The translations under genes were made by a program, and so were the position numbers. Under the pieces are notes generated by a model. That model ran no database searches. It was not told the DNA's origin and worked only from the letters and a program-made list of their open reading frames with translations. Positions 4,509 to 60,484 of a stretch of DNA of 64,000 nucleotides are shown here, piece after piece (the stretch's first letter is position 1; every line of letters begins with the position of its first letter). This stretch comes from a virus (taxonomy: Duplodnaviria > Heunggongvirae > Uroviricota > Caudoviricetes): IMG/VR virus record IMGVR_UViG_3300038360_000413. One strand, written 5' to 3'.

Positions 4509-5080
4509 AACAGAAACCCATGGAACACATAATGATAGACTTGGAGACACTAGGAATTTTACCTACCGCTCCAATCTTACAAATAGCAGCATGCTACTTT
4601 GATCCTGAAACAGGAAAAATAGGAAAATGCTTCGATCATGTACTTGATTGGCAAACAAATGGCTATGGAACAATAGAACGTGAAACAATTGCCTGGTGGC
4701 TTATTCAAAATAAGAGTGCTGGTGCCCCCCTAGTAAATAGAATTACAACACCTATTAAATGGATAGGTGCAGAATTAAATGAATTTGTAAAAATAGAAGG
4801 TTCGGCAAAATACATATGGTGTACAGCACCTTTGACCGATTTAGGTTGTATTAAAAACCTATACAATGCATACGACTGGAAACTACCTTGGAACCATCGA
4901 ATGTATAGAGACGCTAGAACTATGATTGATCTAGCACGACGCCTTGATTGTCCTAAGCCAAAAGTAAATGGAATCAAGCATACAGGAATGTATGATTGCA
5001 AATGGGCCGTTGCGGGAGTATCAGCTGCTTGGCAAAGAATATTTCCAGAAGGCACAGAGTACTTGGGGGAAACAACATAA
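4496..5080 (+). CDS. DEDDh 3'-5' exonuclease (DexA/DnaQ-like)
   Basis: N-terminal MIDLETLG Exo I motif; length about 190 aa. Confidence 0.6.
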   Translation: MATIKQKPMEHIMIDLETLGILPTAPILQIAACYFDPETGKIGKCFDHVLDWQTNGYGTIERETIAWWLIQNKSAGAPLVNRITTPIKWIGAELNEFVKIEGSAKYIWCTAPLTDLGCIKNLYNAYDWKLPWNHRMYRDARTMIDLARRLDCPKPKVNGIKHTGMYDCKWAVAGVSAAWQRIFPEGTEYLGETT

Positions 5081-7719: not shown

Positions 7720-8679
7720 ATGTATAGCAATCAACCAGAAACACCGTTACAGTTTTTAATACAGTATAAGAAGACAATTCTAATTGTTATATTCGCATTA
7801 TTTGCACTAACGGTAGTGTTAGATGGTACGTATACTGTCGATACGCAAGAACAAGCCGTAGTTACCAGATTTGGTAAGTATCTCACTACTACCGACCCAG
7901 GGCTGCATTTCAAAATACCGTTTGTAGATGATACATATCTGATAAAGGTAGAAAAGCAGTACACACAAGAGTTTGGATTTCGTAAAAACAATCTCCGACG
8001 CAGTGAAGGTCCTAAAAACAATATTCCAAAAGAATCATGGATGCTTACAGGTGATTTAAGTATAGCTGAAGTAAGATGGGTTATTCAATACCGAATCACT
8101 GATCCAGCTGCCTATTTGTTTAATTTTAGGCGACCAGAAGAGTTTATGCGGGATCTTTCAGAAATGGATATGAGAACTTTGGTGGGAGATAGATCCTTCC
8201 ACGAGGCAACTCAGAGAGATCGAGCTGCAATGAGTGTTGAAGCTACTAACAACATGTATAAGTACATGACTAAGTACAATATGGGATTGGAAGTAAACAA
8301 TGTACAAATACATGAATCCTTACCTCCTCAACCTGTTATGGCCTCCTACAATGATGTAAATGTTGCCAAACAAGAGCAAGAGACACTTATCAACGAAGCC
8401 AGACAGCAGTATAATAAAATTATCCTAGAAGTAAAGGGACAAGCAAAGGCTAAGATAAATGATGCAAAAGGTTATGCTGCTCAAAGGGTAAACAATGCAA
8501 AGGGTGACGTAGCTGCATTTATGAAACTAGAAGCGGAGTATTTAAAAGCTCCAGAAATAACAAAGCAACGACTATACTTAGAGGCCATGGATAATATACT
8601 CGCTGGCGCTGTAATAAAGGTTGTTGATGAAGATCTTCAAAGTATTTTACCACACCTAAGTTTAGATGGAGGAAGATAA
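7720..8679 (+). CDS. hflK: SPFH/band-7 protein, HflK-like
   Basis: N-terminal TM, then TQEQAVVTRFGKY...GLHFKIPF band-7 core and C-terminal coiled coil. Confidence 0.7.
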   Translation: MYSNQPETPLQFLIQYKKTILIVIFALFALTVVLDGTYTVDTQEQAVVTRFGKYLTTTDPGLHFKIPFVDDTYLIKVEKQYTQEFGFRKNNLRRSEGPKNNIPKESWMLTGDLSIAEVRWVIQYRITDPAAYLFNFRRPEEFMRDLSEMDMRTLVGDRSFHEATQRDRAAMSVEATNNMYKYMTKYNMGLEVNNVQIHESLPPQPVMASYNDVNVAKQEQETLINEARQQYNKIILEVKGQAKAKINDAKGYAAQRVNNAKGDVAAFMKLEAEYLKAPEITKQRLYLEAMDNILAGAVIKVVDEDLQSILPHLSLDGGR

Positions 8680-9616
8680 AATGTTAAAGAAAATCATTAT
8701 TACAATTATCGGATTTCTTGCCCTTACTGTCGCGTATACCGGAGCATTCACAGTGCTGGAAACGGAACAAGGTGTTATATTACAGTTTGGTAAGGTTATC
8801 AGACAAGTAGATACTGCAGGATTTCATTGGAAATTGCCTTTCATACAAAGCTTTGAAGTAATGGAAAAAAGAAAGCTTGAGTGGGACGGACCACCAACAC
8901 AAATCCCAACTGCAGACAATAAAGTGATATTAGTAGATACCTTTGCAAGATATAAGATCACAAATCCAAAAAGATACTACAAAGCACTTAGAACCGAGCA
9001 ACGAACATTGGCAAAACTAAGTGAAGTTATCAAAGGAGCGAATATTAATGTGGTATCTTCCAGATCATTGGGAGAAGTGGTGAGAAACTCCGACAGACAG
9101 ATGCTGTTGAATTCAGAGGAAACCGAAGACGCAACTATGATGGATTCCAAAGGAACGGTTCAAGCTAAAGGAGCACGTGGTGTAATTCGTGACGAGATAT
9201 TTGAAAAAGTCAACACGATGTTAACAACTCTTGATCTTGGTATAGAACTTGTCAATCTGGAAATTAAAAGAACCTCGTATGTAGCGTCACTGCAGCCTAG
9301 TGTTTTCAAAAGGATGATTTCTGAACAGAATCGAATTGCTGAGAAATATCGTGCTGAAGGCCAGGGACAAAATACCGCTATTCGAAGTCTTATTGACAGA
9401 GATGAGAAAGAAATATTGTCTGAAGCATACAAAAACGCAAAAGACATCACAGGAGCGGCAAACGCAAGTGCAACAAAAATCTATGCCGAATCCTACGAAC
9501 AAAATCCAGATTTTTATGCTTTCTTAAAGTCATTAGAGCTTTATGAAAACACGCTTTCTGGACAGGAATTTATTTTATCAACGAAACATTCGTTTCTGCG
9601 ATATTTAGATAACTAA
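8666..9616 (+). CDS. hflC: SPFH/band-7 protein, HflC-like
   Basis: TM then ETEQGVILQFGKV...GFHWKLPFIQ core; paired with the upstream HflK-like gene. Confidence 0.7.
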   Translation: MEEDKMLKKIIITIIGFLALTVAYTGAFTVLETEQGVILQFGKVIRQVDTAGFHWKLPFIQSFEVMEKRKLEWDGPPTQIPTADNKVILVDTFARYKITNPKRYYKALRTEQRTLAKLSEVIKGANINVVSSRSLGEVVRNSDRQMLLNSEETEDATMMDSKGTVQAKGARGVIRDEIFEKVNTMLTTLDLGIELVNLEIKRTSYVASLQPSVFKRMISEQNRIAEKYRAEGQGQNTAIRSLIDRDEKEILSEAYKNAKDITGAANASATKIYAESYEQNPDFYAFLKSLELYENTLSGQEFILSTKHSFLRYLDN

Positions 9617-13534: not shown

Positions 13535-14425
13535 GTGCAGGTATCGAATCCTGTCCATTCTAATACCTTTTTTCCAAAACACATTATGAAGCAAACAAAT
13601 ATAGATAAATTTAGTACGAAAGGAAGCACCCATAAGATCAATCAAGATTACGCATACGTAGAATCTTTAGAAGATGCCAAACTACTTGTTGTCTCAGATG
13701 GATGCTCCAGTGGAAGACTAGTTAGTATCGGATCTAGAATGATGTGTATGCTAGCAACTACGTACTTAAAAACCGCACAATATATAGACGAATTTATTAG
13801 ATTTCCTCGAACATTTGAAATGGCACTAACGGACGGATTGACCGAATTGTTAGATAACGAGGCGCTTGGACTACAAAAGGAAGATCTATTAGCTACAATT
13901 CTAGCCATATATTATGATAATAAAACATCCAGCTACGCATTAAAATATATAGGTGATGGATACATTCTGATAGAATATACATCAGGAGCCGTTATACTGG
14001 AAGAGTTGACATATGATGAAAATAAACCTATGTATCCCATATACTTAACTTCGAAATACGAACTCTCCTCTCCTTGTACTTTAAATCAAAAGTGGTACAT
14101 GAAAGAAAACGGCATATGGATAACATTGGGAACAGGAACAGGGTACAAACGCGCAATTGATACAATTTTCAGTACTTCCGAATCTGTAAAAAGAATGCAC
14201 CTTATTACTGATGGAATGTCGAGTTTTGTAAACAAAGCTACTTTAGAAAAAATTGATGTTACAAAGATAGCTGACGAAATACTCGCATTAAAATCAGATG
14301 ACGGACCATTCATGCAAAGACGTATGAAACGAATGCTTACTCTTTTTGAGAAAAAGAACATCTTTCCTGAAGATGATTTTACAATTGTAAGCCTTAATAT
14401 AAAGGAGATCAAAAGCGATGCATAA
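13535..14425 (+). CDS. PP2C-like protein phosphatase
   Basis: LVVSDGCSSG and LITDGMSSF motifs resembling PP2C metal-binding Asp motifs. Confidence 0.45.
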   Translation: MQVSNPVHSNTFFPKHIMKQTNIDKFSTKGSTHKINQDYAYVESLEDAKLLVVSDGCSSGRLVSIGSRMMCMLATTYLKTAQYIDEFIRFPRTFEMALTDGLTELLDNEALGLQKEDLLATILAIYYDNKTSSYALKYIGDGYILIEYTSGAVILEELTYDENKPMYPIYLTSKYELSSPCTLNQKWYMKENGIWITLGTGTGYKRAIDTIFSTSESVKRMHLITDGMSSFVNKATLEKIDVTKIADEILALKSDDGPFMQRRMKRMLTLFEKKNIFPEDDFTIVSLNIKEIKSDA

Positions 14426-14750
14426 TTCAAAAGAATTTAAACAAATTATTAAAGAAGTAGCAGAACAAAATAAATTAATCAATGCTATAGAGTCTATAAC
14501 ATGGAGTATAAAAACTATCGACAGACGTATGGACTCAGATGAATGTGCTATTTGTGGATTAGAAGCTTTAACAAGAGATAAAGATGGACCCGAGTTGAGC
14601 TCAATTAGTCTCGATTTAATAGATGTAGACACAAGAATTGAATTAGTCGCTAAACAGAAAAGACTATTAATAGAAGAGCGTAGTAAGGCAGAAAATGATT
14701 TACTAATCTTAAGAGAAAGATTTAAAAAAGATGCCAACAGTAATAAATAA
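14418..14750 (+). CDS. hypothetical protein
   Basis: 110-aa ORF. Confidence 0.35.
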   Translation: MHNSKEFKQIIKEVAEQNKLINAIESITWSIKTIDRRMDSDECAICGLEALTRDKDGPELSSISLDLIDVDTRIELVAKQKRLLIEERSKAENDLLILRERFKKDANSNK

Positions 14751-16467
14751 ACGGACTGGAAAATCGACTCAACTAAATGAAAGCAGTGATTTATTAGGTG
14801 AAGGCGGCGAAGGCAGAGTATTTGGTAAAGGCAACGAAGTATTCAAAATTTATATTAATCCCTCCGATGTAATTTCATTAGAAAAGATCAGAGAGTTACA
14901 GAAAATAAAATACAAAAATGTATTTATTCCAAAAGATATGTTAGTAGATCGACATGGTAAGCCTATAGGGTTCACAACAAATAGGGTGAAGAATTTCACG
15001 TATTTGACTCGATTATTTATTACAAGTTTTTGGGATAAGAATAATATCACAGTTGACAACATTGTAGCTTTAACAAAAGAAATGCAACACACGATCAAGC
15101 ATATACATGCACAACAAGTATTAATGGTTGACGGCAACGAGATGAATTATCTTGTAGATAGTAAAACTTATCAGATACCATACTTTATTGATGTAAACGC
15201 TTGGCAGACTCCAAGTTATCCTGCAACAGTAATTATGCCCAACATAAGAGATCATCATTCTTCTAAGTTTTCTGAATTTACAGATTGGTTCTCTTTTGGA
15301 ATAGTATCCTGTCAACTTTTTACAGGATTACACCCATACAAGGGCAGACATCCTCAGTATGCTGGAAGAAAGCAACTAGAAGCTCGTATGAAAGCGAACG
15401 TATCCATTTTCAACAAAGACACTAAAATACCAGGAGCGGTAAGAGATTTAGCTATTATTCCTCCCAACCTCAAAGAATGGTATATTAGAATGTTTGAAAA
15501 GGGAGAAAGATTAGAACCTCCAATGATCGGCAAACACACATTTACGTTTGAAGACAAACCGGTGGTTATTACTAACGAAAACTTCTATGTTCAAATGCTA
15601 GTATCCCTACCACATACTATTACACATCACTACGGAACAAGTGAAAATGATTATCTACAAACAAAAGAAAAAGTATATCAATATGATTTTATCACAAAAG
15701 CTTTAAAAGAATATGATTTAGTAAATAAGAACTCTAGAATATTAATTGACCCGATCCAAGATCAAAAAGCTTATGAAGTGTTTATTGAAAACACACATTT
15801 GCATATAAGAACCTTAGGTCAGTCAACAATTTCTGATACTAAATATAAAGCTGACGAAATTATGATTATAGATAATCGATTATACATAAAAACAGATGAT
15901 AAATTCCAACTAATGCGACTTTTCAAAGGTAGAACAGGACCAATGGTTGCGTCGGCTACAACTTTAAACGTAGCGGCCCAAGCCACACAACTGTTTGATG
16001 GAATGTTGTACTCACTTATAGGACAAAAACATTATCTGTATTTTCCCCAAAAAAATAACATAATTAAAACATTCATATCGGAACATTTGACGGATAGACG
16101 AGTATTAGATGCTAAGTACGAAAATGGTATTTGTATGCTCCGAACAATGAATAAGAAGACCGGTATTGAAGAATATGTATTATATATGAATGTAAATGAT
16201 GCCACGGACGTACAAATTAAACCTACGACGGTATCAATACTAAACTTTGTGTCTCTGCAAAAAAAGAGCTCACCTTTTGTATATCTCCATGAAGACGGCA
16301 AACTAACCCTTCTTCCAAAAGATGGCAGTACAGCAGGAAAAGTTGTAGAGCATAGAAACTTAACGACGAATTTGAAGTTGACGAGATCGGGTGATAGAGT
16401 AGGGTTGCTAACAAGGCACAAGTTCTATCGGGTCTCAACAAAAAAGTCAACAAGAAAAAATAACTAG
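14731..16467 (+). CDS. protein kinase-like protein
   Basis: Gly-rich loop LGEGGEGRVFGKG followed by VFKIY lysine; 578 aa; ends in TAG. Confidence 0.45.
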   Translation: MPTVINKRTGKSTQLNESSDLLGEGGEGRVFGKGNEVFKIYINPSDVISLEKIRELQKIKYKNVFIPKDMLVDRHGKPIGFTTNRVKNFTYLTRLFITSFWDKNNITVDNIVALTKEMQHTIKHIHAQQVLMVDGNEMNYLVDSKTYQIPYFIDVNAWQTPSYPATVIMPNIRDHHSSKFSEFTDWFSFGIVSCQLFTGLHPYKGRHPQYAGRKQLEARMKANVSIFNKDTKIPGAVRDLAIIPPNLKEWYIRMFEKGERLEPPMIGKHTFTFEDKPVVITNENFYVQMLVSLPHTITHHYGTSENDYLQTKEKVYQYDFITKALKEYDLVNKNSRILIDPIQDQKAYEVFIENTHLHIRTLGQSTISDTKYKADEIMIIDNRLYIKTDDKFQLMRLFKGRTGPMVASATTLNVAAQATQLFDGMLYSLIGQKHYLYFPQKNNIIKTFISEHLTDRRVLDAKYENGICMLRTMNKKTGIEEYVLYMNVNDATDVQIKPTTVSILNFVSLQKKSSPFVYLHEDGKLTLLPKDGSTAGKVVEHRNLTTNLKLTRSGDRVGLLTRHKFYRVSTKKSTRKNN

Positions 16468-21661: not shown

Positions 21662-21745
21662 GCTGATATTTCCTGAGAGGTCAAAAGGTTCTGATTTGTA
21701 ATCAGATGACGAAAGTCTTCGCAGGTTCGAATCCTGCTATCAGCC
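21662..21745 (+). tRNA. type-II-like tRNA (long variable arm) with anticodon read as TGT
   Basis: Acceptor GCTGATA/TATCAGC, 3-bp D-stem with large loop, anticodon stem TCTGA/TCAGA, loop TTTGTAA, 14-nt variable hairpin GAC-GAAA-GTC, T-arm GCAGG-TTCGAAT-CCTGC. Confidence 0.5.
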
Positions 21746-21766
21746 CAACAAATAAAAGGAACAAAA

Positions 21767-24711: not shown

Positions 24712-24803
24712 ACTCCTGTAGTTATAATTGGTAAAACGGCTGATTTATAATCAGTATAGCGTCAGATGAACGTGAGTTCCAGGTTCGAGTCCTGGTGGGA
24801 GTA
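24712..24803 (+). tRNA. type-II-like tRNA (23-nt variable arm) with anticodon read as TAT
   Basis: Acceptor ACTCCTG/TGGGAGT, anticodon stem GCTGA/TCAGT, loop TTTATAA, variable hairpin CGT-CAGATGA-ACG, T-arm CCAGG-TTCGAGT-CCTGG. Confidence 0.45.
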
Positions 24804-24824
24804 CAAACAAAGAAAGGAAACAAA

Positions 24825-30338: not shown

Positions 30339-30424
30339 GTGTAGGTGGTAGATTTGGGAATACACTCGGCTGTGACCCGAGTTGGAGACAGCTCCTCATG
30401 CGGGTTCGAACCCCGTCCTACACC
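30339..30424 (+). tRNA. type-II tRNA (long variable arm) with anticodon GTG
   Basis: Perfect acceptor GTGTAGG/CCTACAC, 3-bp D-stem GTA/TAC, perfect anticodon stem CTCGG/CCGAG, loop CTGTGAC, variable hairpin GGAG-ACAG-CTCC, T-arm GCGGG-TTCGAAC-CCCGT. Confidence 0.55.
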
Positions 30425-30461
30425 CAAATAAGAAAACATTCCAACAAAATAAGGAAAGGAA

Positions 30462-31466: not shown

Positions 31467-31550
31467 GGGGCGATGCTAGAGCGGTCGAATAGGGTGGTTT
31501 GCAAAACCATCGAGTATATCTCCACATCAGTTCGAATCTGATTCGTCCCT
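31467..31550 (+). tRNA. tRNA with Cys anticodon (GCA) but a 15-nt variable region
   Basis: Acceptor GGGGCGA/TCGTCCC, anticodon stem GTGGT/ACCAT, loop TTGCAAA, T-arm ATCAG-TTCGAAT-CTGAT. Confidence 0.45.
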
Positions 31551-31569
31551 CAAATAACCAAGAAAGATT

Positions 31570-32785: not shown

Positions 32786-32859
32786 GCGCGAGTAGTTCTA
32801 GCGGCTAGAACAGGAGATTCTAAATCTCTGTGTCGCGGGTTCAAGTCCCGCCTCGCGCA
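32786..32859 (+). tRNA. suppressor tRNA, anticodon CTA (reads UAG amber)
   Basis: Canonical 75-nt cloverleaf: acceptor GCGCGAG/CTCGCGC, D-stem GTTC/GAAC, anticodon stem GGAGA/TCTCT, loop TTCTAAA, T-arm GCGGG-TTCAAGT-CCCGC. Confidence 0.7.
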
Positions 32860-32870
32860 CATAAAATTAA

Positions 32871-34365: not shown

Positions 34366-36486
34366 ATGAATATTAATTCGATCTTTTTAAGACGAAAGAG
34401 CAAAATATGTCTTCCTGAAATAACAGAAGGCAATAAAGCAATCCCGGTTACTTACTTAGCAGCTATGTTAAGAAATTTCGCAGGGCTTGGATTTATATTT
34501 ACAACAAATGTAATAGAACGTCTAAAATATCTTCCAGTATCTGTACTTGAAGATTTCTATCTAAAGACTATGATTACTCTTAAACAACTAAAAGGTGTTA
34601 AAACCTACGAACCGATGTATCCTAATTTCCCTAAACAGGTAATGGAGGCATCCTCAGCCGAGCTCTTTATGAATGCTATAGTGCAGTATTGGTTTGGCGC
34701 ATATCCAGCATATGAAAAAGAAGAAAGACTTCCTCTTTTTGAAGAAACTGAAATAACTGTAATAGATTTAGGAACTCCAAAAGAATTTGGAAAAATCTTT
34801 CATGACATGATGTCTTCAAATGCCTCTATATCAGAATTAGATAAAAAAGAACTAGACTGGTTCTTTGCAAATCTTACTGATTTGGCATGTCGAATGGTTC
34901 CAGCTGCAATGCCACAAAAAGAAATTTTGGCATATACAGTAGGACTTATTTCTAAATATGTTACTGGGAACATTGAACTTATTATGCCTCTCTTTACAAC
35001 TGCAACAGATGTATTGAGATTGGCTGTGGCTTTGTCTGACGGCGACGTTAGTTTAGCTAAGAAAACTAAGTTCAGAAACTTTACTCGACCAGAACGTAGA
35101 TTGTTCTTAGCAGTTATAAATTCTCTAAATTACTACAATCTTAGAGAAAATATGCAGCAATACAGAGAACCGTGGTTACGTATCGCTCATCAACTACATC
35201 CAGGTGAAGTTCAATTCAAATATCCAACTGCCTTTAAAGCATTTCATGCCCTTCGAAACGAAAACAAAGTGAGAACTTTTGATGGTAAGGTGGAAATAGC
35301 ATTTAAGAACAAAAACTGCGTCGATCTGTGCACGCTTTTGGTCAAAAGACCGGGTGTTTTTGCACGTACATTGGACAGAATTCTTAGAAGTTTTCCAAAC
35401 GAACACGCCCAGATTTTGAGTGAATTTGCAACAGTTGCAGCTGAGGCATCTACTCCTGTACTAATACAAACATTAGCACATATTCGTAAACGTTCGAATA
35501 CTCCTCAATTGCGTTCTTATGTTCCTAAGGGAAACATTGGTAAAGTACAAATTCATGACAATACTTTTACAGACTTACCTTCTGACACTGTTAAAAGTGC
35601 AGAAGCTGTGTGTGAAAAATCTCTTGAAACTAAGTTTAGTGACTTAGATGAAATGCAAACAGTATTCTTAGATGATAACATGGTAGACTATGTAATACCT
35701 TTCGGACAACGTTCAGCTTCTGAAGCTCTACGCATAATTCCAAGAGGATCTCATATGCCATTAGCTGATAAAAGCACCCTACGTCTTTTCACTTGGTGGA
35801 AAAATAACACTGGAAGAGTGGACGTGGATTTATCAGTGCTACTATTTCGTGAGGATTGGAGCACATATGGACGTTTATCATACACAAATCTAAGAGATGA
35901 TAACATACGATCTTATCATAGCGGAGATATCACAAGTCCAGCACCTGCAGGTGCTTGCGAGTTTGTTGATATCAACAAGCAGTCAGCACTACGCAAAGGA
36001 GCCCGATTTGTATTAATGAATCTTCTTTCCTACACACGTCAGCCATTCAAAGATTTCGAGTGTATAGCTGGTTGGATGGACAGAGACGGTATACAATCTG
36101 GTGAAATTTTCGAACCAACTACGGTTACACAGAGATATGATGTAAACAGTGATGTTAGAGTACATATCCCAGTGTTATTTGACCTAAAAGAGAACAAAGC
36201 AATTTGGATCGATTTGGCAATCACTGATAAAATTAACCGAGGCGGAAATAACGTTGAATCTAATGCTGTGACTTTAAACAGGTTAGCGCAAGTAATAACC
36301 GAAAGAGGTTACTACAATTTGCATGAACTGTTCAAATTACACACAAGAGCTCGTAAGGGTAAGTTTGTAGAAACACCCGAAGAAGCGGACGTAGTTTTCA
36401 CTGCTTCCGACTATAAATCTGAAAATAAGCAAACGGTGGTAACGCCGTATGACACTGAAGTAATCGCTGCAGAGTTTCTTCAGTAA
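34366..36486 (+). CDS. large hypothetical protein (706 aa) immediately upstream of the tRNA-like array
   Basis: Long uninterrupted ORF followed by hairpin terminator at 36521-36540. Confidence 0.55.
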   Translation: MNINSIFLRRKSKICLPEITEGNKAIPVTYLAAMLRNFAGLGFIFTTNVIERLKYLPVSVLEDFYLKTMITLKQLKGVKTYEPMYPNFPKQVMEASSAELFMNAIVQYWFGAYPAYEKEERLPLFEETEITVIDLGTPKEFGKIFHDMMSSNASISELDKKELDWFFANLTDLACRMVPAAMPQKEILAYTVGLISKYVTGNIELIMPLFTTATDVLRLAVALSDGDVSLAKKTKFRNFTRPERRLFLAVINSLNYYNLRENMQQYREPWLRIAHQLHPGEVQFKYPTAFKAFHALRNENKVRTFDGKVEIAFKNKNCVDLCTLLVKRPGVFARTLDRILRSFPNEHAQILSEFATVAAEASTPVLIQTLAHIRKRSNTPQLRSYVPKGNIGKVQIHDNTFTDLPSDTVKSAEAVCEKSLETKFSDLDEMQTVFLDDNMVDYVIPFGQRSASEALRIIPRGSHMPLADKSTLRLFTWWKNNTGRVDVDLSVLLFREDWSTYGRLSYTNLRDDNIRSYHSGDITSPAPAGACEFVDINKQSALRKGARFVLMNLLSYTRQPFKDFECIAGWMDRDGIQSGEIFEPTTVTQRYDVNSDVRVHIPVLFDLKENKAIWIDLAITDKINRGGNNVESNAVTLNRLAQVITERGYYNLHELFKLHTRARKGKFVETPEEADVVFTASDYKSENKQTVVTPYDTEVIAAEFLQ

Positions 36487-36520
36487 CTAGACTCATCCAC
36501 CATGTGTGGAAAGAGATGAG

Positions 36521-36545
36521 CCTCCCTTTAACCGGGGAGGCTGTA
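36521..36545 (+). terminator. hairpin terminator (CCTCCC-TTTAACCG-GGGAGG)
   Basis: Perfect 6-bp GC stem after the 706-aa ORF. Confidence 0.45.
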
Positions 36546-36547
36546 AT

Positions 36548-36618
36548 ACGGAGGTAGCTCAACAGAAGAGCGATGGGTCGCTCCCTGCGTGCTGGTTCAA
36601 ATCCAGCCCTCCGTGCCA
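36548..36618 (+). ncRNA. tRNA-like gene with truncated anticodon arm, CCA encoded
   Basis: Acceptor ACGGAGG/CCTCCGT, D-stem GCTC/GAGC, T-arm GCTGG-TTCAAAT-CCAGC, G-CCA; only 18 nt where anticodon arm plus variable should be. Confidence 0.35.
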
Positions 36619-36758
36619 AATTCGCTGGCTATTTTATTGCTTCCTTCTAAACGCCCAGTGGGCACTTGAATAAGGATCAAACAAAAAACAGTAATAAAGA
36701 TTTCCAGCAAACAATTCGTTTGGCTATATGATAGTTTCCTTCCATAATTTGCCTTAAA

Positions 36759-36830
36759 AGCAAGCGGTTGCGGGTTCGAGTCCCGTCACCATCTTCGGGT
36801 GGTGTAGCTCAATTGGTAGAGCTCTTAATC
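36759..36830 (+). ncRNA. permuted tRNA-like module U1
   Basis: T-arm GCGGG-TTCGAGT-CCCGT, CACCATC-TTCG-GGTGGTG closed acceptor, D-arm GCTC-AATTGGTA-GAGC. Confidence 0.45.
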
Positions 36831-37138
36831 CAACTGTCGTGATTTCCAAACACCCTTTTACTAGATCGTTTAATAAGTACGCTTCGTACTTAGAGATACT
36901 TGCAAAAGATCTTCAACGTAAAGAACTTCTCTTCGATGTCCTGACGGGACATCAGAGAAATTCACAAAGACCTCGTACAAACCCCGGCAACCAGGACTTT
37001 TCCTTCCAGATTCATGAACTCTCTACGAGTGTCCATCAAATCGTTACAGGAAACTACCTGGTGCCAGCTTTGTACATAGCCTTTTAGTAGTAAACAAATT
37101 TCGTTTGGCTATTTATAAACTTCCTTCTATAAACGCAA

Positions 37139-37209
37139 TCCGGGGGTCACAGGTTCGAATCCTGTCAGGCTGCTTCGGCGGTCTGTAGCTCAGTTGGCAG
37201 AGCACCGGA
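37139..37209 (+). ncRNA. permuted tRNA-like module U2 (best preserved)
   Basis: TCCGG (anticodon 3' strand), GGGTC variable, ACAGG-TTCGAAT-CCTGT T-arm, CAGGCTGC-TTCG-GCGGTCTG closed acceptor, D-arm GCTC-AGTTGGCA-GAGC, CCGGA (anticodon 5' strand). Unit closed by GTTTGG (37103) pairing with CCAAAC (37238). Confidence 0.55.
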
Positions 37210-37289
37210 CTTTAAAGTAACCCAGTTTATAAGATTTCCAAACACCCTTTTTATATTTGTTGGCCATATAATATGCTTCCTTCTATTAT

Positions 37290-37362
37290 AATCAATGATG
37301 ATGTAGGTTCGATTCCTACCTTCCCCACACCGAGGGGAAGTGGCGCAATTGGTGACGCACAT
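37290..37362 (+). ncRNA. permuted tRNA-like module U3
   Basis: GTAGG-TTCGATT-CCTAC, CTTCCCC-ACACCGA-GGGGAAG closed acceptor, D-arm GCG-CAATTGGTGA-CGC. Confidence 0.45.
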
Positions 37363-37430
37363 GACATGTAGCAATTATGATTTCCAACTATTTTTTTTGT
37401 TTGGCTATGAAAAAGCTTCCTTCTATTATT

Positions 37431-37480
37431 ACAGGTTCAAATCCTGTATTGCTCATTGAGCGATGATTGGTTAAACTAGC
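37431..37480 (+). ncRNA. permuted tRNA-like module U4 (truncated 5' half)
   Basis: ACAGG-TTCAAAT-CCTGT, ATTGCTC-ATT-GAGCGAT. Confidence 0.35.
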
Positions 37481-37820
37481 TTTTTCGATTTCCAAACATT
37501 CTTTTACTAGACCGTTTAATAGGTACGCTACGTACTTAAAGGTAAGCAAAATTACCTTAAACAAAGAACTCTCCCAATATCCACGAGCGGGACCTAAGAG
37601 GTCCAAGATGGATATTGACAGAATTCACAAGAAATACAGAAACCTACTGGCCGGTCAATCCAGGCCTAGGCGACGAGTCAGCCCTGAGCGAACAGTGCCG
37701 ACGTCTTGCCCGGGCCACGGACCACCGGCAACTATGTTTCCGAATCTCTTTTAGTAGTAACACGACAAATTTTAACTTGTTTGGCTATAAAGAAACTTCC
37801 TTCTAAAATGGTTAATAAAT

Positions 37821-37880
37821 CGGTAGCATTGCTATCGGTTTTGTAGGTTCAAACCCTACTCCGCGCTTCGGCGCAGTAAA
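37821..37880 (+). ncRNA. permuted tRNA-like module U5 (anticodon-like hairpin, T-arm, closed acceptor)
   Basis: CGGTAGC-ATT-GCTATCGG hairpin, GTAGG-TTCAAAC-CCTAC, CCGCGC-TTCG-GCGCAG. Confidence 0.35.
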
Positions 37881-38014
37881 ATCAGTTTCTTTGATTTCCA
37901 AACACCCCTTTCGAAAGGCTATTTAATGACTTCCTTCTACTTCTGTTGCCGCCTAACGGCGGTATACTTTCTATGTATAATGAAACCAGTTATTAAGATT
38001 TCCTTTCACCTTTT

Positions 38015-38095
38015 GCTCCCATAGTCACAACGATCTTCTAAGTCGTTATAGTGTAATTGGATCTGTAAATGTAGGTTCAAGTCCTACTGGGAGTG
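38015..38095 (+). ncRNA. atypical tRNA-like gene: anticodon arm (loop CTTCTAA, TCT) 8 nt after the acceptor; D-loop-like TAGTGTAATTGGA after it
   Basis: Acceptor GCTCCCA/TGGGAGT and T-arm GTAGG-TTCAAGT-CCTAC; same non-canonical arm order as the gene at 33523. Confidence 0.35.
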
Positions 38096-38231
38096 CAACG
38101 TCTGGCTATTTTATTGCTTCCTTCTATTTTAGCTCTTAAATGAGCACTTGAATGCTAACCAAAAAAATAGTAATAAAGATTTCTAGACGACTTTTTAAAT
38201 AAAAAAAACAAACAACTACACGGAGGAAACA

Positions 38232-38420
38232 ATGAAGTGTATTAAAAACGTACAAACTGATGAACTAAATCGCGTTACGGATCGAGAGGCAGAGCTATTA
38301 ATAGACTCTAAGGAGTATGTATACGTCAATAAACAACAATGGAAAGACGCCAAAAGACCGACAAAATCGGTAACTGGTACTATAAATACGCTAATTCAGC
38401 AAAGGGGCGTTGTAGCTTAA
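38232..38420 (+). CDS. hypothetical protein
   Basis: 62-aa ORF with RBS GGAGGAAACA. Confidence 0.35.
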   Translation: MKCIKNVQTDELNRVTDREAELLIDSKEYVYVNKQQWKDAKRPTKSVTGTINTLIQQRGVVA

Positions 38421-56709: not shown

Positions 56710-57861
56710 ATGACAACTCAATTAGACAAATTTAAAAACGTAGAAAAACAACTAAACTCCTATTTCGTAGAAAGATTAGACGAAATTAGAGGATTGACAT
56801 TAGCACTATTGTCACAAAATAATGTGCTATATTTGGGACCTCCGGGAATATCTAAATCTTATTTAGTTAAAGCATGGTCTATGTGTATACAAGGTGCGAA
56901 CTACTTCGAACATTTGCTTACAAAATTTACAGTACCAGATGAACTTGCAGGACCTTTTTCACTAAGTGGATTAGAGAATGACAAGTTTATTAGAAATACT
57001 ACAAACATGCTCCCGGAGGCTCACATTGCTTTTCTAGACGAAATCTGGAAAGGAAATAGTGGGGTTCTAAACTTCTTATTAAAATTAGCAAACGAACGCA
57101 CCTTCTTTAATAATGGTGAAGAATGTGAAACTCCAATCTTAACAATAGTAGGAGCTTCAAACGAAATACCAGAGGACGATGACAACTTAGAAGCTTTACA
57201 GGATCGATTTATTATAAAGTTTATGGTAAAAGCAATCCAGGAACAGGAAAATTTTATTAAGATGGTATCAAGTGATGATTTTGTCGCAGAGACCTTCTTA
57301 ACTTTAAATGACATAGAAGAAGCACATACGCAAATTGCAAAAGTAAAAATGCCAAAAGAAATGTCAGAATTATTGTATGAAATTAAAGTAGAATTGAAAA
57401 ACGACGAGATAGTAGTTACCGACAGAACTCTAAAAAAAGCAGTTAACATTTTAAAATCCGAAGCTTGGCTAGACGGCTCTAAAGAGGTCAACGAAGATCA
57501 CTTTGATTGTTTGCAACATGTTCTTTGGACTGATCCAGATCACTCTCAAAAAACTGCAACAAAGTTATTTGGATTAGTAGATCCAGCACGCAGCAAGATG
57601 CTTGCAATAATGGATGATTGCAAAGATTTGTTCGCCGATTTAAGTAAAAAGAAAAAAGCGGAAACCAAAGAAGATTTACAAGAAATCATGGAAGGAATAG
57701 TTAAACTAAAAGCTGCTAAAGTAAGACTTACTGAGTTGTACAAAGAAGCAGTAAAAGCAAAAAACAGAAAGAAACAGCAAAAGACGGCTGAGCAAATGAT
57801 TAAACAAGTAAATGTTATGGTTGGAAAACTTGCTTCGTATGTTGGGTTTGATGATGTATGA
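56710..57861 (+). CDS. MoxR-like AAA+ ATPase
   Basis: Walker A LGPPGISKS, Walker B AFLDEIWK, MoxR-like length. Confidence 0.65.
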   Translation: MTTQLDKFKNVEKQLNSYFVERLDEIRGLTLALLSQNNVLYLGPPGISKSYLVKAWSMCIQGANYFEHLLTKFTVPDELAGPFSLSGLENDKFIRNTTNMLPEAHIAFLDEIWKGNSGVLNFLLKLANERTFFNNGEECETPILTIVGASNEIPEDDDNLEALQDRFIIKFMVKAIQEQENFIKMVSSDDFVAETFLTLNDIEEAHTQIAKVKMPKEMSELLYEIKVELKNDEIVVTDRTLKKAVNILKSEAWLDGSKEVNEDHFDCLQHVLWTDPDHSQKTATKLFGLVDPARSKMLAIMDDCKDLFADLSKKKKAETKEDLQEIMEGIVKLKAAKVRLTELYKEAVKAKNRKKQQKTAEQMIKQVNVMVGKLASYVGFDDV

Positions 57862-59366
57862 GACGTATAGATCATAAATTTTATTTAAAAAGAATTAAGA
57901 ATTCTAAATACACAATCAAGCACGATAATTTTGATTTGATAAATTTTCAACAATTGATAAGTGTTAATCCTGAGATGACTAAAGAATTTCTGCTTATGAA
58001 AGATGAATACCCACAGATGCAGGAATTACAACAGGATATTTTTAATTCATTATATAAATACAACCCAACAAAGTTAAAAGACCATGAAATCAATTACGAT
58101 TATTGGCTCAATGCTAACGTAATGGATGCTATTATGAAAAGTAAGCAGTACAAAGAGCTTAGAAGCTTAACCAGATTGGATAAGTTAAATTCCGCAACGG
58201 GAACAAAAATATTATCCACAGAAGCCAAAGATATAATAGAAAATATTCAAGAACGAAGTAAAAAAGCAATGGAAGCTGCGCAACAAGCATATCTTACTGC
58301 TAAGCAACTTGGCGGCAGTGGTAAAAGCACTAAAGCCCAAGGTGGAGAACAACTAACACTTACAGAAGCTATCGAGCGATTACGAGAAGCTGAAAAAGAA
58401 CTTAAAAGTAAGTTAATGACTCCAAAAGAACAGAGGGTAATGGCTCGTGCACTTACTACAGTGGTAAGCAAAACAAAAGAGTCTTCGGATTTAATAACAG
58501 ATTGGGGTTTACAACAATCAGACTCATTTACACGTGTAGGATATCAAGAACAGCTACAGCTAATAAAAGAGTTACAAGAAAATCCAAAACTACGAGCAAT
58601 TGCAGCTCTTATGGGTAGATATAAAAGAATGATTTTAGCTCAAAAACATACTAAAATCAAAAGAGGTTCTGATAGCCTATATGACATTACCTTAGGCAAT
58701 GACCTGGGAAAAGTTATACCTTCAGAAGCTATGAAATTGAAAAACCCCATAACTCGGAAAGTGTTTATTAAGCAATACTATGAAAAGAGTTTACTGCAAC
58801 ACGAATATGAAGGAAAAGTAAAGAAGCATAAAGGAGCTATAGCTATAGCTATCGATGAATCAGGCTCTATGGACGGAGATAAAGAAATTTGGGCAAAAGC
58901 GTTAGCACTTGGTTTAATGGAAATTGCCAGAATGCAAAAAAGAAATCTATTTATAGTACATTTTAATGCAAACGATAAAGAAGTACTACGAGTAGATACA
59001 TTTCTAAAAACCGATCCCTATGACATAAACAAAGTTATCGATTGTGCCACTTATTTTGCTTCAGGAAGCACTAGATTCAGTCCAGCATTAGATTTGTGCC
59101 GAGATCGAATAAACCTGGAAACAGAGTTTTCTACAGCAGATATAATTTTAATCACAGATGGCTCATCCGCAGTTCTTCCAGAATGGGCGACTGCCTTTAA
59201 CACATGGAAAAAAGAAAAAAAAGTTAATACTTATGGAGTAATAATTGATTTCGGATATAGCACAAAAACTGCTATAAAAGATTTTATAGATGACATAACA
59301 CGTATGTCTTCTTTTACTTCAAAAGAAAAAGATCAATTTATGTTCAAAATGATGAACAATTTGTAA
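57858..59366 (+). CDS. vWA-domain protein (MoxR partner type)
   Basis: MIDAS motif AIDESGSMDG in the C-terminal third; gene overlaps the AAA+ stop. Confidence 0.6.
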   Translation: MRRIDHKFYLKRIKNSKYTIKHDNFDLINFQQLISVNPEMTKEFLLMKDEYPQMQELQQDIFNSLYKYNPTKLKDHEINYDYWLNANVMDAIMKSKQYKELRSLTRLDKLNSATGTKILSTEAKDIIENIQERSKKAMEAAQQAYLTAKQLGGSGKSTKAQGGEQLTLTEAIERLREAEKELKSKLMTPKEQRVMARALTTVVSKTKESSDLITDWGLQQSDSFTRVGYQEQLQLIKELQENPKLRAIAALMGRYKRMILAQKHTKIKRGSDSLYDITLGNDLGKVIPSEAMKLKNPITRKVFIKQYYEKSLLQHEYEGKVKKHKGAIAIAIDESGSMDGDKEIWAKALALGLMEIARMQKRNLFIVHFNANDKEVLRVDTFLKTDPYDINKVIDCATYFASGSTRFSPALDLCRDRINLETEFSTADIILITDGSSAVLPEWATAFNTWKKEKKVNTYGVIIDFGYSTKTAIKDFIDDITRMSSFTSKEKDQFMFKMMNNL

Positions 59367-59376
59367 GAAAACGTCA

Positions 59377-59551
59377 CAGTTATAGTAATAGCAACGTATG
59401 CGCAAGTATATTAAACAAGTGCGAATCGTACTTGACAGCTAAAGTAATAAATCAACAAAGCAGGACTGATCCTGAAGCAAGCTTCAGGCCGTCTAAAGAC
59501 GGCGGAACGGGCTATGGAGCCTATCCGACGTCACATGTATAACTGCATTAA
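59377..59551 (+). ncRNA. candidate retron msr/msd ncRNA region
   Basis: Inverted repeats CAGTTATA (59377) and TATAACTG (59538) flank perfect hairpins CCTGAAGC-AA-GCTTCAGG and GCCGTC-TAAA-GACGGC, immediately upstream of the RT gene. Confidence 0.45.
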
Positions 59552-59563
59552 TCACAGAAAAAA

Positions 59564-60484
59564 ATGAACTTATATGAACTATTGGAAACGACTAAAGAGC
59601 AATTAGAAACAATACTTGCTAACAAACATGAACATTATAAATCGTTTCCTATCGCCAAATCAAGTGGCAAATTAAGATGGTTAGATGCTCCTAGCGAGGA
59701 GTTGAAAGCCATACAATCTCAGTTACTAAGAAAAGTGTTTTACAACTTTGCCCCGCATTCAGCCGCTGTAGGTTTTAGAGTGGGCATAGGAGTGCGAGAT
59801 GGCGCCGAAAGACACTTAGGAAACAAAACGTTACTATGTATGGATTTGAAAGACTTTTTCAATTCTATTACATATAATAACGTCATCAAATTACTTTATT
59901 TTCTGACAGATAAACTAAAGAAACACATACCAGAATGGACATACACAGCAGATGACATTGAAACAATGGCAAAGCTGGTTACATACCACAAAGCACTACC
60001 ACAAGGAGCGCCGACAAGTCCAGCTTTGGCTAATTTAGTTTGTTGGAAACTAGATCAAGAGCTAGAAAGACTAGCAAAAGAAAATTCCCTAATATATACT
60101 AGATATGCAGATGATCTGGCATTCAGTCACAAGGACAGTAAATATGACATTCATCCCTTAATTGAAACAATTACAAAACTTATAGAGGGTGATGAGGTAA
60201 CTAATCTACTAGTTAATACCAAGAAAACACGCATTACTAGACCACATCGACGTATGACAGTCACAGGTGTAGTAATAAATGATAAGCTTAGTTTAGCTAA
60301 AAGCTTTAGAAAAAACTTAAGAGCTAGAATTCATAATATTAAAAAATCAGGTATTACAATATCTGAAAAAGAATCAGAAGTAATTAGAGGTCATGTAGAG
60401 TGGATATACTCAATAAATCCCCAAGAGGGACAAAAATTCCGTCAGGCCTTCTCCGGCATTTCAAAGGAGTCCCAGACGACTTAA
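59564..60484 (+). CDS. reverse transcriptase, retron-type
   Basis: RT motifs LPQGAPTSPALANL (QGxxxSP), YTRYADDLAFS (YADD), and retron-typical VTG (RMTVTGVVIND); 306 aa. Confidence 0.75.
   Translation: MNLYELLETTKEQLETILANKHEHYKSFPIAKSSGKLRWLDAPSEELKAIQSQLLRKVFYNFAPHSAAVGFRVGIGVRDGAERHLGNKTLLCMDLKDFFNSITYNNVIKLLYFLTDKLKKHIPEWTYTADDIETMAKLVTYHKALPQGAPTSPALANLVCWKLDQELERLAKENSLIYTRYADDLAFSHKDSKYDIHPLIETITKLIEGDEVTNLLVNTKKTRITRPHRRMTVTGVVINDKLSLAKSFRKNLRARIHNIKKSGITISEKESEVIRGHVEWIYSINPQEGQKFRQAFSGISKESQTT

What the first reader, a model, noticed from the sequence alone, without database searches (positions are those of the whole stretch)
36611..38195. Tandem array of circularly permuted tRNA-like modules with closed (UUCG-capped) acceptor stems
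Across 1.6 kb there are at least six units in which a perfect tRNA T-arm and acceptor 3' strand are joined by a tetraloop (TTCG in three units) directly to the acceptor 5' strand, D-arm and anticodon-stem 5' strand. This is a tRNA opened at the anticodon loop instead of at the acceptor end. In unit U2 (37139-37209) every element is canonical, including 5-bp anticodon-stem pairing TCCGG/CCGGA. The unit ends pair (GTTTGG at 37103 with CCAAAC at 37238; TTATAAAC with GTTTATAA). All units share single-stranded boxes GATTTCCAAACACCC and GGCTAT-N7-CTTCCTTCTA, and 85-nt direct repeats bracket the array. This architecture is what bacterial Y-RNA-like (YrlA) tRNA mimics have, but a tandem array of them in a phage tRNA island has not, to my knowledge, been described. 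The units could be Rsr/Ro-type protein ligands, decoys for tRNA-targeting host defences, or substrates of the phage's own RnlA/Pnk repair enzymes.
Basis: partly seen in the sequence, partly recalled or inferred. Interest (0 to 1): 0.9.

Follow-up and report, generated by a model that had tools for sequence, protein, structure and literature searches.

The report
Phage RNA array partnered with Ro-like protein
The repeats are eight small structured RNAs, three carrying a rearranged tRNA look-alike, built on a handle that is conserved in many phages and bacteria and almost always sits beside one 700-residue, Ro60-like protein gene, which points to an undescribed RNA-protein machine.

Summary
The repeats are real, but the array is better described differently. 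Window 36624-38189 (+) holds eight units. Each has the same handle: helix P1, internal loop CUAU/GAUUU, a 7+2 bp helix P2, then CUUCCUUCUA ... cargo ... YAG. The cargo varies. Units B, C and D carry a circularly permuted tRNA-like domain that matches Rfam YrlA at 24-43 bits (gathering score 69). Units E and F carry only a T arm plus a closed acceptor-like hairpin. Units A, G and H carry plain hairpins.

The handle is the larger finding. Its exact 5' box occurs in more than 119 viral contigs. Both helices covary, and Rfam 15 has no match. It is linked to homologs of the adjacent 706-aa ORF (34366-36486): 86 of 119 viral loci found through the RNA encode the protein, and 78 of 80 bacterial loci found through the protein carry the RNA, almost always just upstream on the same strand.

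Best reading: a Ro60/Y-RNA-like ribonucleoprotein with a new handle and exchangeable cargo. Binding and function are inferred, not shown.

The parts
34366..36486 (+). Gene for the 706-aa partner protein: an N-terminal alpha-solenoid that resembles Ro60/TROVE in fold, plus a C-terminal TerD-like beta domain
36548..36615 (+). Aberrant tRNA-like gene directly before unit A, with a shortened anticodon loop and an encoded CCA
   Evidence: Rfam tRNA 43 bits. Not called by ARAGORN.
36624..36708 (+). Unit A: handle with a plain hairpin cargo (GCCC-AGU-GGGC)
   Evidence: Model R1, built only from other phages, scores 37.7 bits, E 6.4e-8. MFE shows P1+P2, z -3.3. Paralog of unit H.
36718..36851 (+). Unit B: the cargo is a complete permuted tRNA look-alike in the order anticodon-like hairpin, T arm, acceptor 3' strand, UUCG, acceptor 5' strand, D arm
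   Evidence: Rfam YrlA 42.3 bits, E 1.7e-7, at 36762-36829. MFE z -3.65. P2 is ATGATAG/CTGTCGT with two G-U pairs.
36856..37099 (+). Long structured spacer 1 (about 245 nt), outside the handles; a paralog of spacer 2
   Evidence: MFE -71.8 kcal/mol, z -6.9. Shares its first 70 nt and the terminal CTTTTAGTAGTAA with spacer 2. No Rfam match.
37103..37243 (+). Unit C: the cargo is a permuted tRNA look-alike opened at the anticodon loop, with the acceptor closed by C(UUCG)G
   Evidence: Rfam YrlA full-length match, 43.2 bits, E 9.8e-8, at 37126-37236. MFE shows T arm, closed acceptor, D arm and CCGG/CCGG stem, z -3.3.
37259..37388 (+). Unit D: permuted tRNA-like cargo; the handle reads GGCCAU and P2 has one bulged A
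   Evidence: Rfam YrlA 24.1 bits, E 0.03. MFE shows T arm, CUUCCCC/GGGGAAG stem and a D-like arm, z -1.4.
37399..37497 (+). Unit E: the cargo is a T arm plus a closed acceptor-like hairpin, with no D arm
   Evidence: R1 24.8 bits, E 2.5e-4. MFE z -4.9.
37502..37775 (+). Long structured spacer 2 (about 275 nt)
   Evidence: MFE -89.5 kcal/mol, z -6.4, with the same architecture as spacer 1. The overlapping ORFs start inside the 3' box, and their similarity is confined to the stretch where the DNA itself is conserved.
37779..37903 (+). Unit F: the cargo is a long hairpin, a T arm and a UUCG-capped acceptor-like hairpin, with no D arm
   Evidence: MFE z -5.4. P2 is AAAGAAA/TTTCTTT.
37913..38007 (+). 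Unit G: plain hairpin cargo; P1 has compensatory changes (AAAGG/CCTTT)
   Evidence: R1 25.5 bits, E 1.6e-4. MFE z -4.5.
38015..38095 (+). Aberrant tRNA-like gene before unit H: truncated D arm, long variable region, anticodon loop CUUCUAA
   Evidence: Rfam tRNA 39.8 bits. Not called by ARAGORN.
38099..38189 (+). Unit H: plain hairpin cargo; paralog of unit A
   Evidence: R1 33.4 bits, E 1e-6. MFE z -3.8.

Best explanation
The array encodes eight small non-coding RNAs of an unclassified family. I propose that they are the RNA subunits of a ribonucleoprotein formed with the 706-aa protein encoded just upstream, and that the pair works like Ro60 with its Y RNAs.

Each RNA has an invariant handle and an exchangeable apical cargo. 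The handle is P1, the internal loop CUAU/RNUUU, P2, and the single-stranded CUUCCUUCUA ... YAG. I take the handle to be the protein-binding part.

In bacteria the cargo is minimal, and one to three copies sit just upstream of the gene. Phages have multiplied the unit into arrays inside tRNA islands and loaded it with pieces of tRNA: anticodon-arm-like hairpins, T-arm/acceptor minihelices, and whole permuted tRNAs of the YrlA type. The tRNA-like cargo would bring tRNA-recognising factors to the protein or hold them away from it. Those factors could be processing or repair enzymes, or host anticodon nucleases.

Shown here: the family exists, its secondary structure, its covariation, the two-way gene linkage, and fold-level resemblance of the protein to Ro60 plus a TerD domain.

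Inferred: physical binding of the handle to the protein, processing of the array into discrete RNAs, and any role in tRNA surveillance or anti-defence.
For: - The exact 5' box is present in more than 119 viral contigs. Of 173 copies, 107 have the complete 3' half; shuffled controls gave 0.
- Covariation in 65 phage units: 88.8% of cells paired against 58% shuffled; score 0.78 against 0.18; none of 500 shuffles reached the observed value.
- Covariation in 127 bacterial units: 95.5% against 66%; 12 pairs with changes on both sides.
- About 22 nucleotides are invariant across bacterial phyla.
- A covariance model built without the window finds units A, H, G and E at E 6e-8 to 2.5e-4.
- Linkage: 62 of 146 flanking ORFs are homologs of the 706-aa protein. 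86 of 119 loci fetched by the RNA encode it. 78 of 80 bacterial loci fetched by the protein alone carry the RNA, with 126 of 127 hits on the gene's strand.
- No other protein neighbour is conserved in those bacterial loci.
- Diverged proteins come with diverged handles next to the gene: CUUACUUCUA in LpeD and Weasels2, GGCCAC in XacN1.
- YrlA-like cargo recurs in units of other phages. I also found such modules beside the gene in Weasels2 and in one bacterial MAG.
- Hairpins with a tRNA-style 7-nt loop occur in 25 of 84 distinct cargos, against 8.3 +/- 2.5 in shuffles.
- Where a tRNA lies in the locus, the nearest one is on the same strand in 39 of 39 units.
Against: - There is no binding or expression data of any kind.
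- In bacteria the RNA lies in the 5' leader of the gene, often 0-20 nt from the start codon. That position fits a purely cis-regulatory element equally well.
- In the window the array lies downstream of the gene, with a tRNA between them.
- The model scores the four long-cargo units poorly. Their membership rests on reading the sequence and on the MFE folds.
Confidence: 0.6

Rival explanations
1. The handle is a cis-regulatory leader of the 700-aa gene: a riboswitch, or a site for autogenous repression. Under this view the phage copies are regulatory elements or sponges, not subunits of a stable particle.
For: In 78 of 80 bacterial loci the copies lie directly upstream on the gene's strand, usually in tandem. 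In about 29 of 74 loci the last unit ends within 20 nt of the start codon, often with no Shine-Dalgarno sequence between them. Invariant unpaired nucleotides with freely covarying stems are typical of aptamers.
Against: In phages, copies also lie downstream of the gene and in arrays of up to about eight with no ORF following them. Some bacterial copies are downstream too (L140, L133, L200). The apical loop tolerates cargos from 13 to more than 100 nt, including whole tRNA-like domains. No consistent terminator or anti-terminator is seen. Autogenous binding would be compatible with the best explanation rather than opposed to it.
Confidence: 0.2
2. The units are ordinary YrlA-type Y RNAs that serve a canonical Ro60/Rsr protein, either the host's or one encoded elsewhere in the phage genome.
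For: Rfam YrlA is the best-scoring family for units B and C (about 43 bits, E 1e-7). Phage Ro60 orthologs and phage YrlA RNAs are known (PMC4201824; PMC12135203).
Against: All scores are below the 69-bit gathering score. Only the tRNA-like core and generic stems match. The GNCGAAN0-1G motif is absent. No TROVE domain appeared in 25 window ORFs scanned against Pfam. Five of the eight units lack the YrlA-like domain but keep the handle. The handle tracks a different protein family across phyla.
Confidence: 0.05
3. The tRNA-like units act on their own as decoys or competitive inhibitors for host tRNA-targeting nucleases, and the neighbouring protein is irrelevant.
For: The phage invests heavily in tRNA supply and repair: 26 tRNAs and a tmRNA, an Rnl1-type ligase and a T4-type Pnk, and a SpoU methylase. 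Anticodon-arm-like and T-arm-like hairpins are enriched in phage cargos.
Against: This does not explain the invariant handle, its presence with minimal cargo in bacteria, or the near-universal linkage to the protein. In units C and D the anticodon loop, the usual nuclease target, is absent.
Confidence: 0.1
4. The array is non-functional debris: decayed or rearranged tRNA genes and a repeated mobile element spread by the nearby HNH homing endonucleases.
For: Two HNH genes lie just upstream. The flanking tRNAs are aberrant. Units A and H are recent duplicates.
Against: Compensatory changes keep both handle helices and the closed acceptor helix intact while the sequences diverge. The loops are invariant from Bacillota to Planctomycetota. 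Strand and position relative to the gene are fixed.
Confidence: 0.05

Closest known systems
Bacterial and phage Y RNAs of the YrlA type with Ro60/Rsr (Rfam RF02553; Chen et al. 2014, PMC4201824)
   Same: A small RNA encoded beside, and on the strand of, a protein whose N-terminal half resembles the Ro60 ring. A long terminal stem with an internal loop closes a domain made of a T arm, a loop-closed acceptor stem and a D arm. Several RNAs of differing apical parts serve one protein.
   Different: The handle sequence and its internal loops are unrelated to the Y RNA stem, and GNCGAAN0-1G is absent. Scores are 24-43 bits against a threshold of 69. The protein has no detectable TROVE sequence and carries TerD where Ro60 has vWA. 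Most family members carry no tRNA-like part. Copies are usually tandem and, in bacteria, sit in the gene's leader.
Circularly permuted tRNA genes of Cyanidioschyzon merolae and other algae (from my own knowledge: Soma et al. 2007)
   Same: The 3' half of the tRNA (T arm, acceptor 3' strand) precedes the 5' half (acceptor 5' strand, D arm) in the gene.
   Different: There the linker is removed after circularisation and a normal tRNA with free ends results. Here the acceptor helix is extended and sealed by a stable C(UUCG)G loop, and the opened end runs into a conserved handle. No aminoacylatable tRNA can be produced without cutting that loop.
Phage T4 stable RNAs rnaC and rnaD (species 1 and 2) in the T4 tRNA cluster
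   Same: Small stable RNAs of unknown function, co-located and co-oriented with phage tRNA genes. rnaC ends in a T-arm-like hairpin.
   Different: They lack the GGCUAU/CUUCCUUCUA handle. The 8 kb around them holds no gene annotated as a relative of the 700-aa protein, and T4 was not among the tblastn matches in the phage collection.
Abundant unannotated transcripts next to a Ro-like gene in Listeria phage CKA15 (PMC12282133)
   Same: A phage, a tRNA region, highly expressed putative ncRNAs, and a downstream protein whose best HHpred match is D. radiodurans Rsr. The authors suggest Y RNAs.
   Different: CKA15_055 is 57 kDa. No Listeria phage was matched when I searched the phage collection with this family's proteins, so it is probably a separate, more canonical Ro lineage. 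I did not examine its RNAs.

Membership tests
YrlA / bacterial Y RNA (Rfam RF02553) | Score at or above the Rfam gathering threshold (69 bits) | tested here: not met
   Units C, B and D score 43.2, 42.3 and 24.1 bits. Equivalent units elsewhere score 38-40 bits.
YrlA / bacterial Y RNA (Rfam RF02553) | tRNA-like domain in the order T arm, loop-closed acceptor-like stem, D arm, enclosed by a stem formed from the RNA's two ends | tested here: met
   Met for units B, C and D only. In 15 such modules from this family, all 7 acceptor pairs show changes on both sides. Those modules were selected for pairing, so the percentage paired is circular.
YrlA / bacterial Y RNA (Rfam RF02553) | GNCGAAN0-1G motif near the 5' end, proposed to be the Rsr recognition site (PMC4201824) | tested here: not met
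   No + strand match anywhere in 36500-38250.
YrlA / bacterial Y RNA (Rfam RF02553) | Encoded within about 4 kb of a TROVE-domain Ro60 ortholog, on the same strand | tested here: inconclusive
   The adjacent same-strand protein has no TROVE match by Pfam or hhalign, but it resembles Ro60 in fold.
YrlA / bacterial Y RNA (Rfam RF02553) | Binds Rsr, carries tRNA-type modifications, and is a substrate of RNase P and the CCA-adding enzyme | not testable with these tools
   Requires biochemistry.
GGCUAU/CUUCCUUCUA handle RNA (family defined here) | P1 ending in GG/CC, internal loop CUAU/RNUUU, 7-bp P2 extended by C-G and U-A pairs, then UCCUUCUA ... YAG | tested here: met
   All eight units show it on reading and in their MFE folds. 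Four are detected by an independent model at E <= 2.5e-4. B and D have small deviations (UUUCCUUCCA; GGCCAU plus a bulge).
GGCUAU/CUUCCUUCUA handle RNA (family defined here) | Lies beside, and on the strand of, a homolog of the roughly 700-aa solenoid-TerD protein | tested here: met
   The gene ends at 36486 and unit A starts at 36624, both on the + strand. The same holds in 86/119 viral and 78/80 bacterial loci.
Canonical tRNA (RF00005) | Contiguous cloverleaf with free acceptor ends and a 7-nt anticodon loop | tested here: not met
   ARAGORN calls nothing in 36624-38189. Rfam tRNA gives only sub-threshold matches of 23-26 bits there, two of which span neighbouring units and one lies within unit B without a D arm. 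The acceptor ends are joined by a loop.
Circularly permuted tRNA genes (algal type) | A removable linker between acceptor 3' and 5' ends, and processing signals that yield a normal tRNA | tested here: not met
   The linker is a stable tetraloop on an extended helix (C-UUCG-G in unit C). The opened end continues into the conserved handle. I did not search systematically for a bulge-helix-bulge motif.
Ro60/TROVE proteins (applied to the 706-aa ORF) | TROVE domain (PF05731) and Ro60 vWA domain (PF25045) detectable by sequence | tested here: not met
   No Pfam hit in the ORF or in 58 relatives. hhalign against a 33-sequence TROVE profile gives probability 0.2%. The positive control, Bxz1 gp220, hits both domains. 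The C-terminal domain is TerD.
Ro60/TROVE proteins (applied to the 706-aa ORF) | Closed ring of HEAT-like helical repeats | tested here: inconclusive
Riboswitch / cis-regulatory leader | Sits in the 5' UTR of the regulated gene and has an expression platform | tested here: inconclusive
   The position criterion is met in bacteria but not in the window. No consistent terminator or sequestering helix was found.

The most novel reading that the evidence does not exclude
A widespread RNA-protein particle of bacteria and phages has gone unnoticed. It pairs a protein combining a Ro60-like ring with a TerD domain and its own family of cargo-display RNAs. Large phages have turned the RNA into arrays that present parts of tRNA (anticodon arms, T-arm minihelices, whole permuted tRNAs) on a common protein-binding handle, as part of the contest over tRNA cleavage and repair.
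Probability: 0.45. Interest if true: 0.9.

Novelty: new variant of a known kind. Interest (0 to 1): 0.85.

Why it matters
Ro60 and its Y RNAs are the only established example of a ring protein whose activity is set by a modular small RNA. In bacteria the purpose of the tRNA-like module is still unknown.

A second system, unrelated in sequence and built on the same logic, would give an independent way to ask what tRNA mimicry on such RNAs is for. This one is present across many bacterial phyla and in large phages. The protein family has 1,432 cluster representatives at 50% identity with E <= 1e-30.

It would assign a partner and a testable role to a protein family of unknown function. It would add a structured RNA class with about 22 invariant nucleotides to the catalogue. 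It would also explain many unannotated gaps in phage tRNA islands.

Tractable hosts and phages carry it: Priestia megaterium, Brevibacillus, Paenibacillus, and phages XacN1, LpeD and Weasels2.

Tried and rejected
- **Known RNA family.** Rfam 15 at E <= 10 gave only YrlA and tRNA on the cargo and nothing on the handle. I searched the window region, seven phage loci and a Paenibacillus copy.
- **Promoter reading of the 5' box.** TTGGCT-17-TATTAT-like matches coincide with four units. The -35-like bases are simply the variable P1 strand, and the total count of promoter-like sites is no higher than in shuffles. Rejected.
- **Protein-coding reading.** Only 8 of 90 units in other phages lie inside any ORF of 80 aa or more, on either strand. 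ORFs over the two long spacers start inside the 3' box, and their similarity is confined to the stretch where the DNA itself is conserved.
- **T4 rnaC/rnaD as relatives.** They have no handle.
- **Sequence homology of the protein to Ro60.** Negative by phmmer and by a family profile against PDB sequences, and by hhalign against one TROVE sequence and a TROVE profile.
- **A conserved third gene in bacterial loci.** None found.
- **Close relatives of the phage.** No megablast match in GenBank phages.
- **Listeria phage CKA15-type Ro-like protein as a family member.** No Listeria phage was matched.
- **Literature.** Searches for the motif strings, for SCO0854/MXAN_6230, and for TerD together with riboswitch-candidate terms found no description.
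- **Not available.** The AFDB fold libraries could not be searched.
Full report
**Observation.** The + strand between 36624 and 38189 holds eight units, A to H. Each starts with a short strand ending in GG, followed by CTAT, a 7-nt variable block, and CTTCCTTCTA. Each ends with YAG, the complement of the variable block, GATTT, CC, and the complement of the first strand.

GGCTAT-N7-CTTCCTTCTA occurs 7 times with at most 2 mismatches, against 0.56 expected for the whole window. It occurs nowhere else in the window at that stringency. Unit D is a slightly deviant eighth copy. The full 15-nt 3' box GATTTCCAAACACCC occurs in four units; the other four keep only its GATTTCC/GATTTCT core.

By eye the variable blocks are complementary in every unit: GAAAAAG/CTTTTTC in E, AAAGAAA/TTTCTTT in F. 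The outer strands change together: TTTGG/CCAAA in most units, AAAGG/CCTTT in G, CTGG/CCAG in A. All eight minimum-energy folds contain both helices, with z-scores from -1.4 to -5.4.

Units A and H are 76% identical over 88 nt. What does not hold is 'at least six' full permuted tRNAs:
- B, C and D have a T arm, a closed acceptor stem and a D arm.
- E and F have only a T arm and a closed hairpin.
- A, G and H carry plain hairpins.
- Unit B keeps an intact anticodon-like hairpin and is opened between the D arm and the anticodon stem. Unit C is opened in the anticodon loop.

**The handle is a widespread RNA family.** Of 173 copies, 107 have a full 3' half with AG, CC and P1 pairing. None did when the downstream sequence was shuffled.

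I made an ungapped alignment of 65 distinct units with the cargo trimmed. In it, 88.8% of cells pair against 58% after shuffling. Thirteen of 17 pairs show changes on both sides. The covariation score is 0.78, against 0.18 shuffled and 0.13-0.22 when the partners are slid. P2 pairing was partly a selection criterion, but P1 was only weakly so.

A covariance model built from these sequences alone recovers window units A, H, G and E at E 6e-8 to 2.5e-4. The four units with cargos of about 80 nt or more are penalised by the insertion and are assigned by reading and folding.

The same model finds 237 hits in 100 viral loci, commonly as arrays of three to eight. Rfam 15 has no family for the handle in phage or bacterial copies.

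**Gene linkage.** I clustered the ORFs that flank the units in the viral loci. This gave one dominant family: 62 of 146 neighbours are full-length homologs (35-41% identity) of the window's 706-aa ORF at 34366-36486. Units lie both just upstream of it and 5-8 nt after its stop codon. By tblastn, 86 of the 119 RNA-fetched loci encode it.

The reciprocal test was cleaner. I fetched 80 bacterial loci by protein similarity alone. They come from Bacillota, Bacteroidota, Acidobacteriota, Chloroflexota, Armatimonadota, Verrucomicrobiota, Planctomycetota, Cyanobacteria and Myxococcota. They contain 127 model hits at E <= 1e-3 in 78 loci. Of these hits, 126 are on the gene's strand and nearly all lie within about 250 nt upstream of the start, as one to three tandem copies (first seen).

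One of the two exceptions has no upstream sequence. The other (L185) has a unit with tRNA-like cargo just after the gene.

In this independently ascertained set, 95.5% of cells pair against 66% shuffled. GGCUAU, CUUCCUUCU, AG and U..UCC are essentially invariant. No other protein is conserved in these neighbourhoods.

More distant proteins in cultured phages have diverged handles beside them: CUUACUUCUA in LpeD and Weasels2, GGCCAC in XacN1. That pattern is what co-evolving partners would show. The individual E-values there are weak (0.003-0.13), except for one XacN1 copy at 1.4e-6.

**The protein.**
- It matches no Pfam family, a PHROG of unknown function, and no PDB sequence.
- NCBIfam relates it to the MXAN_6230/SCO0854 family, but below that model's cut-off.
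- It has 1,432 cluster representatives with E <= 1e-30 in 1.84 billion.
- The AlphaFold2 model is confident: pLDDT 87, pTM 0.85. It has an all-alpha N-terminal part of about 430 residues and a beta-rich C-terminal domain.
- Foldseek against viral models finds a TROVE-domain protein at E 7.5e-5. Against PDB its 50 best listed matches include TerD domains but no Ro60.
- hhalign between the family profile and a 33-sequence TROVE profile finds nothing, probability 0.2%.

I therefore call the protein Ro60-like in fold, with TerD where Ro60 has vWA. I do not claim homology.

**The cargo.**
- Most relatives carry 13-50 nt.
- Hairpins with a 7-nt loop with U at position 2 and a purine at position 6, as in tRNA anticodon and T loops, occur in 25 of 84 distinct cargos against 8.3 +/- 2.5 in shuffles. 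The loops include CUUGAAA, CUGCAAA, CUGUAAA and CUUUUAA, as well as T loops.
- Full permuted tRNA-like domains recur. Rfam YrlA scores 38-40 bits inside units of four other contigs.
- A pattern search found 18 distinct modules: two in the window, the rest in viral loci, phage Weasels2 and one bacterial MAG.
- In 15 of them aligned, every acceptor pair shows changes on both sides. Pairing was a search criterion there, so only the diversity of the sequences is informative.

**How it most likely works.** The nearest analogy is Ro60 with its Y RNAs. In that system a ring protein has its RNA genes beside it on the same strand. A conserved stem with an internal loop serves as the protein's handle, and a variable apical module tethers other factors. 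In YrlA that module mimics tRNA (PMC4201824).

Here the handle is different, the protein is at most a distant structural relative, and the cargo is far more variable. I propose that the handle binds the protein. I also propose that phages use arrays of handles to present tRNA parts to tRNA-recognising proteins.

The window's phage is clearly under pressure on its tRNAs:
- 26 tRNAs and a tmRNA;
- an Rnl1-type RNA ligase next to a T4-type polynucleotide kinase-phosphatase;
- a SpoU methylase and a nucleotidyltransferase in the island.

Binding, processing and biological role are all inferences.

**Rivals.** The main rival is a cis-regulatory leader. In bacteria the units sit in the 5' leader, often abutting the start codon without a Shine-Dalgarno sequence. 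That reading does not explain downstream copies, long arrays without ORFs, or the tolerance for large cargos. Autogenous binding would merge the two views.

Canonical YrlA membership fails three of its four testable criteria. A protein-independent decoy role and decay or mobile-repeat debris are each disfavoured by the invariant handle, the covariation and the gene linkage.

**Novelty.** I found no description of the handle or of this RNA-protein pairing in Rfam, Pfam, PHROGs, NCBIfam names or the searchable literature. Phage Ro60 orthologs and phage YrlA RNAs are known (PMC4201824, PMC7824862, PMC12135203). A Listeria phage study suggested that abundant transcripts near a Ro-like gene are Y RNAs (PMC12282133), but that protein appears to belong to a different family.

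I rate this a new variant of a known kind, the ring protein with a modular ncRNA. The possibility remains that it is a distinct particle in its own right.

Noticed in passing
window 36856-37099 and 37502-37775 (+): Two paralogous structured RNAs of about 245 and 275 nt sit between units B/C and E/F, outside the handles. They share a closing stem (UUACUAGA / UUUUAGUAGUAA), two small hairpins and a long hairpin with compensatory changes. Their z-scores are -6.9 and -6.4. They have no Rfam match and no relative in the 119 viral loci.
   Followed up: partly
window 36548-36615 and 38015-38095 (+): The two 'tRNAs' that precede units A and H are aberrant. The first has a shortened anticodon loop and an encoded CCA. 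The second has a truncated D arm, a long variable region and the anticodon loop CUUCUAA. Rfam scores them at 43 and 40 bits, and ARAGORN calls neither.
   Followed up: partly
window 32786-32860 (+): A tRNA with anticodon CTA, which ARAGORN labels Pyl. It is an amber-suppressor-type tRNA, so the phage may read TAG as a sense codon in some genes.
   Followed up: no
window 21662-21746, 24712-24804, 30339-30425, 31467-31551 (+): Several tRNAs are unusually long for their type: Thr 85 nt, Ile-TAT 93 nt, His 87 nt, Cys 85 nt. They may have insertions, introns or long variable arms.
   Followed up: no
bacterial loci, e.g. L171, L172, L174, L180, L203 (just before position 2501): In many Paenibacillus genomes the last RNA unit ends 1-12 nt before the ATG of the 700-aa gene, with no Shine-Dalgarno sequence between them. 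This raises the question of how the gene is translated. Possibilities are a leaderless mRNA after processing, or a role of the pyrimidine-rich loop.
   Followed up: partly
alignment A4, columns 22 and 153 (bacterial units): The second-to-last variable pair of P2 is a U-G wobble in 76 of 122 distinct bacterial units. This could be a recognition feature.
   Followed up: no
window 1016-2143 and 2109-2972 (+): An Rnl1-type RNA ligase and a T4-type polynucleotide kinase-phosphatase are adjacent. This is the classic tRNA heal-and-seal pair.
   Followed up: partly
window 56710-60484 (+): A MoxR-type AAA ATPase, a vWA protein and a reverse transcriptase (RVT_1, 59564-60484) lie in a row. Two SPFH/Band-7 genes (7720-9616), a PP2C phosphatase (13535-14425) and a kinase-like ORF (14731-16467) lie earlier in the window.
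   Followed up: no
window 36720-36748, 37260-37289, 37401-37429, 37781-37809 (+): The 5' boxes of units B, D, E and F coincide with sigma-70-like matches (TTGGCT, 17-18 nt, TATTAT/CATAAT/TAAAAT). I judged this incidental, because the -35-like bases are the variable P1 strand in other genomes.
   Followed up: yes
L204 (Rhodococcus phage Weasels2) 4614-4680 and L185 (Lujinxingiaceae MAG) 4682-4750: Permuted tRNA-like modules lie just downstream of the homologous protein gene in a cultured actinophage and in a bacterial genome. The tRNA-mimic cargo is therefore not confined to the window's phage lineage.
   Followed up: partly
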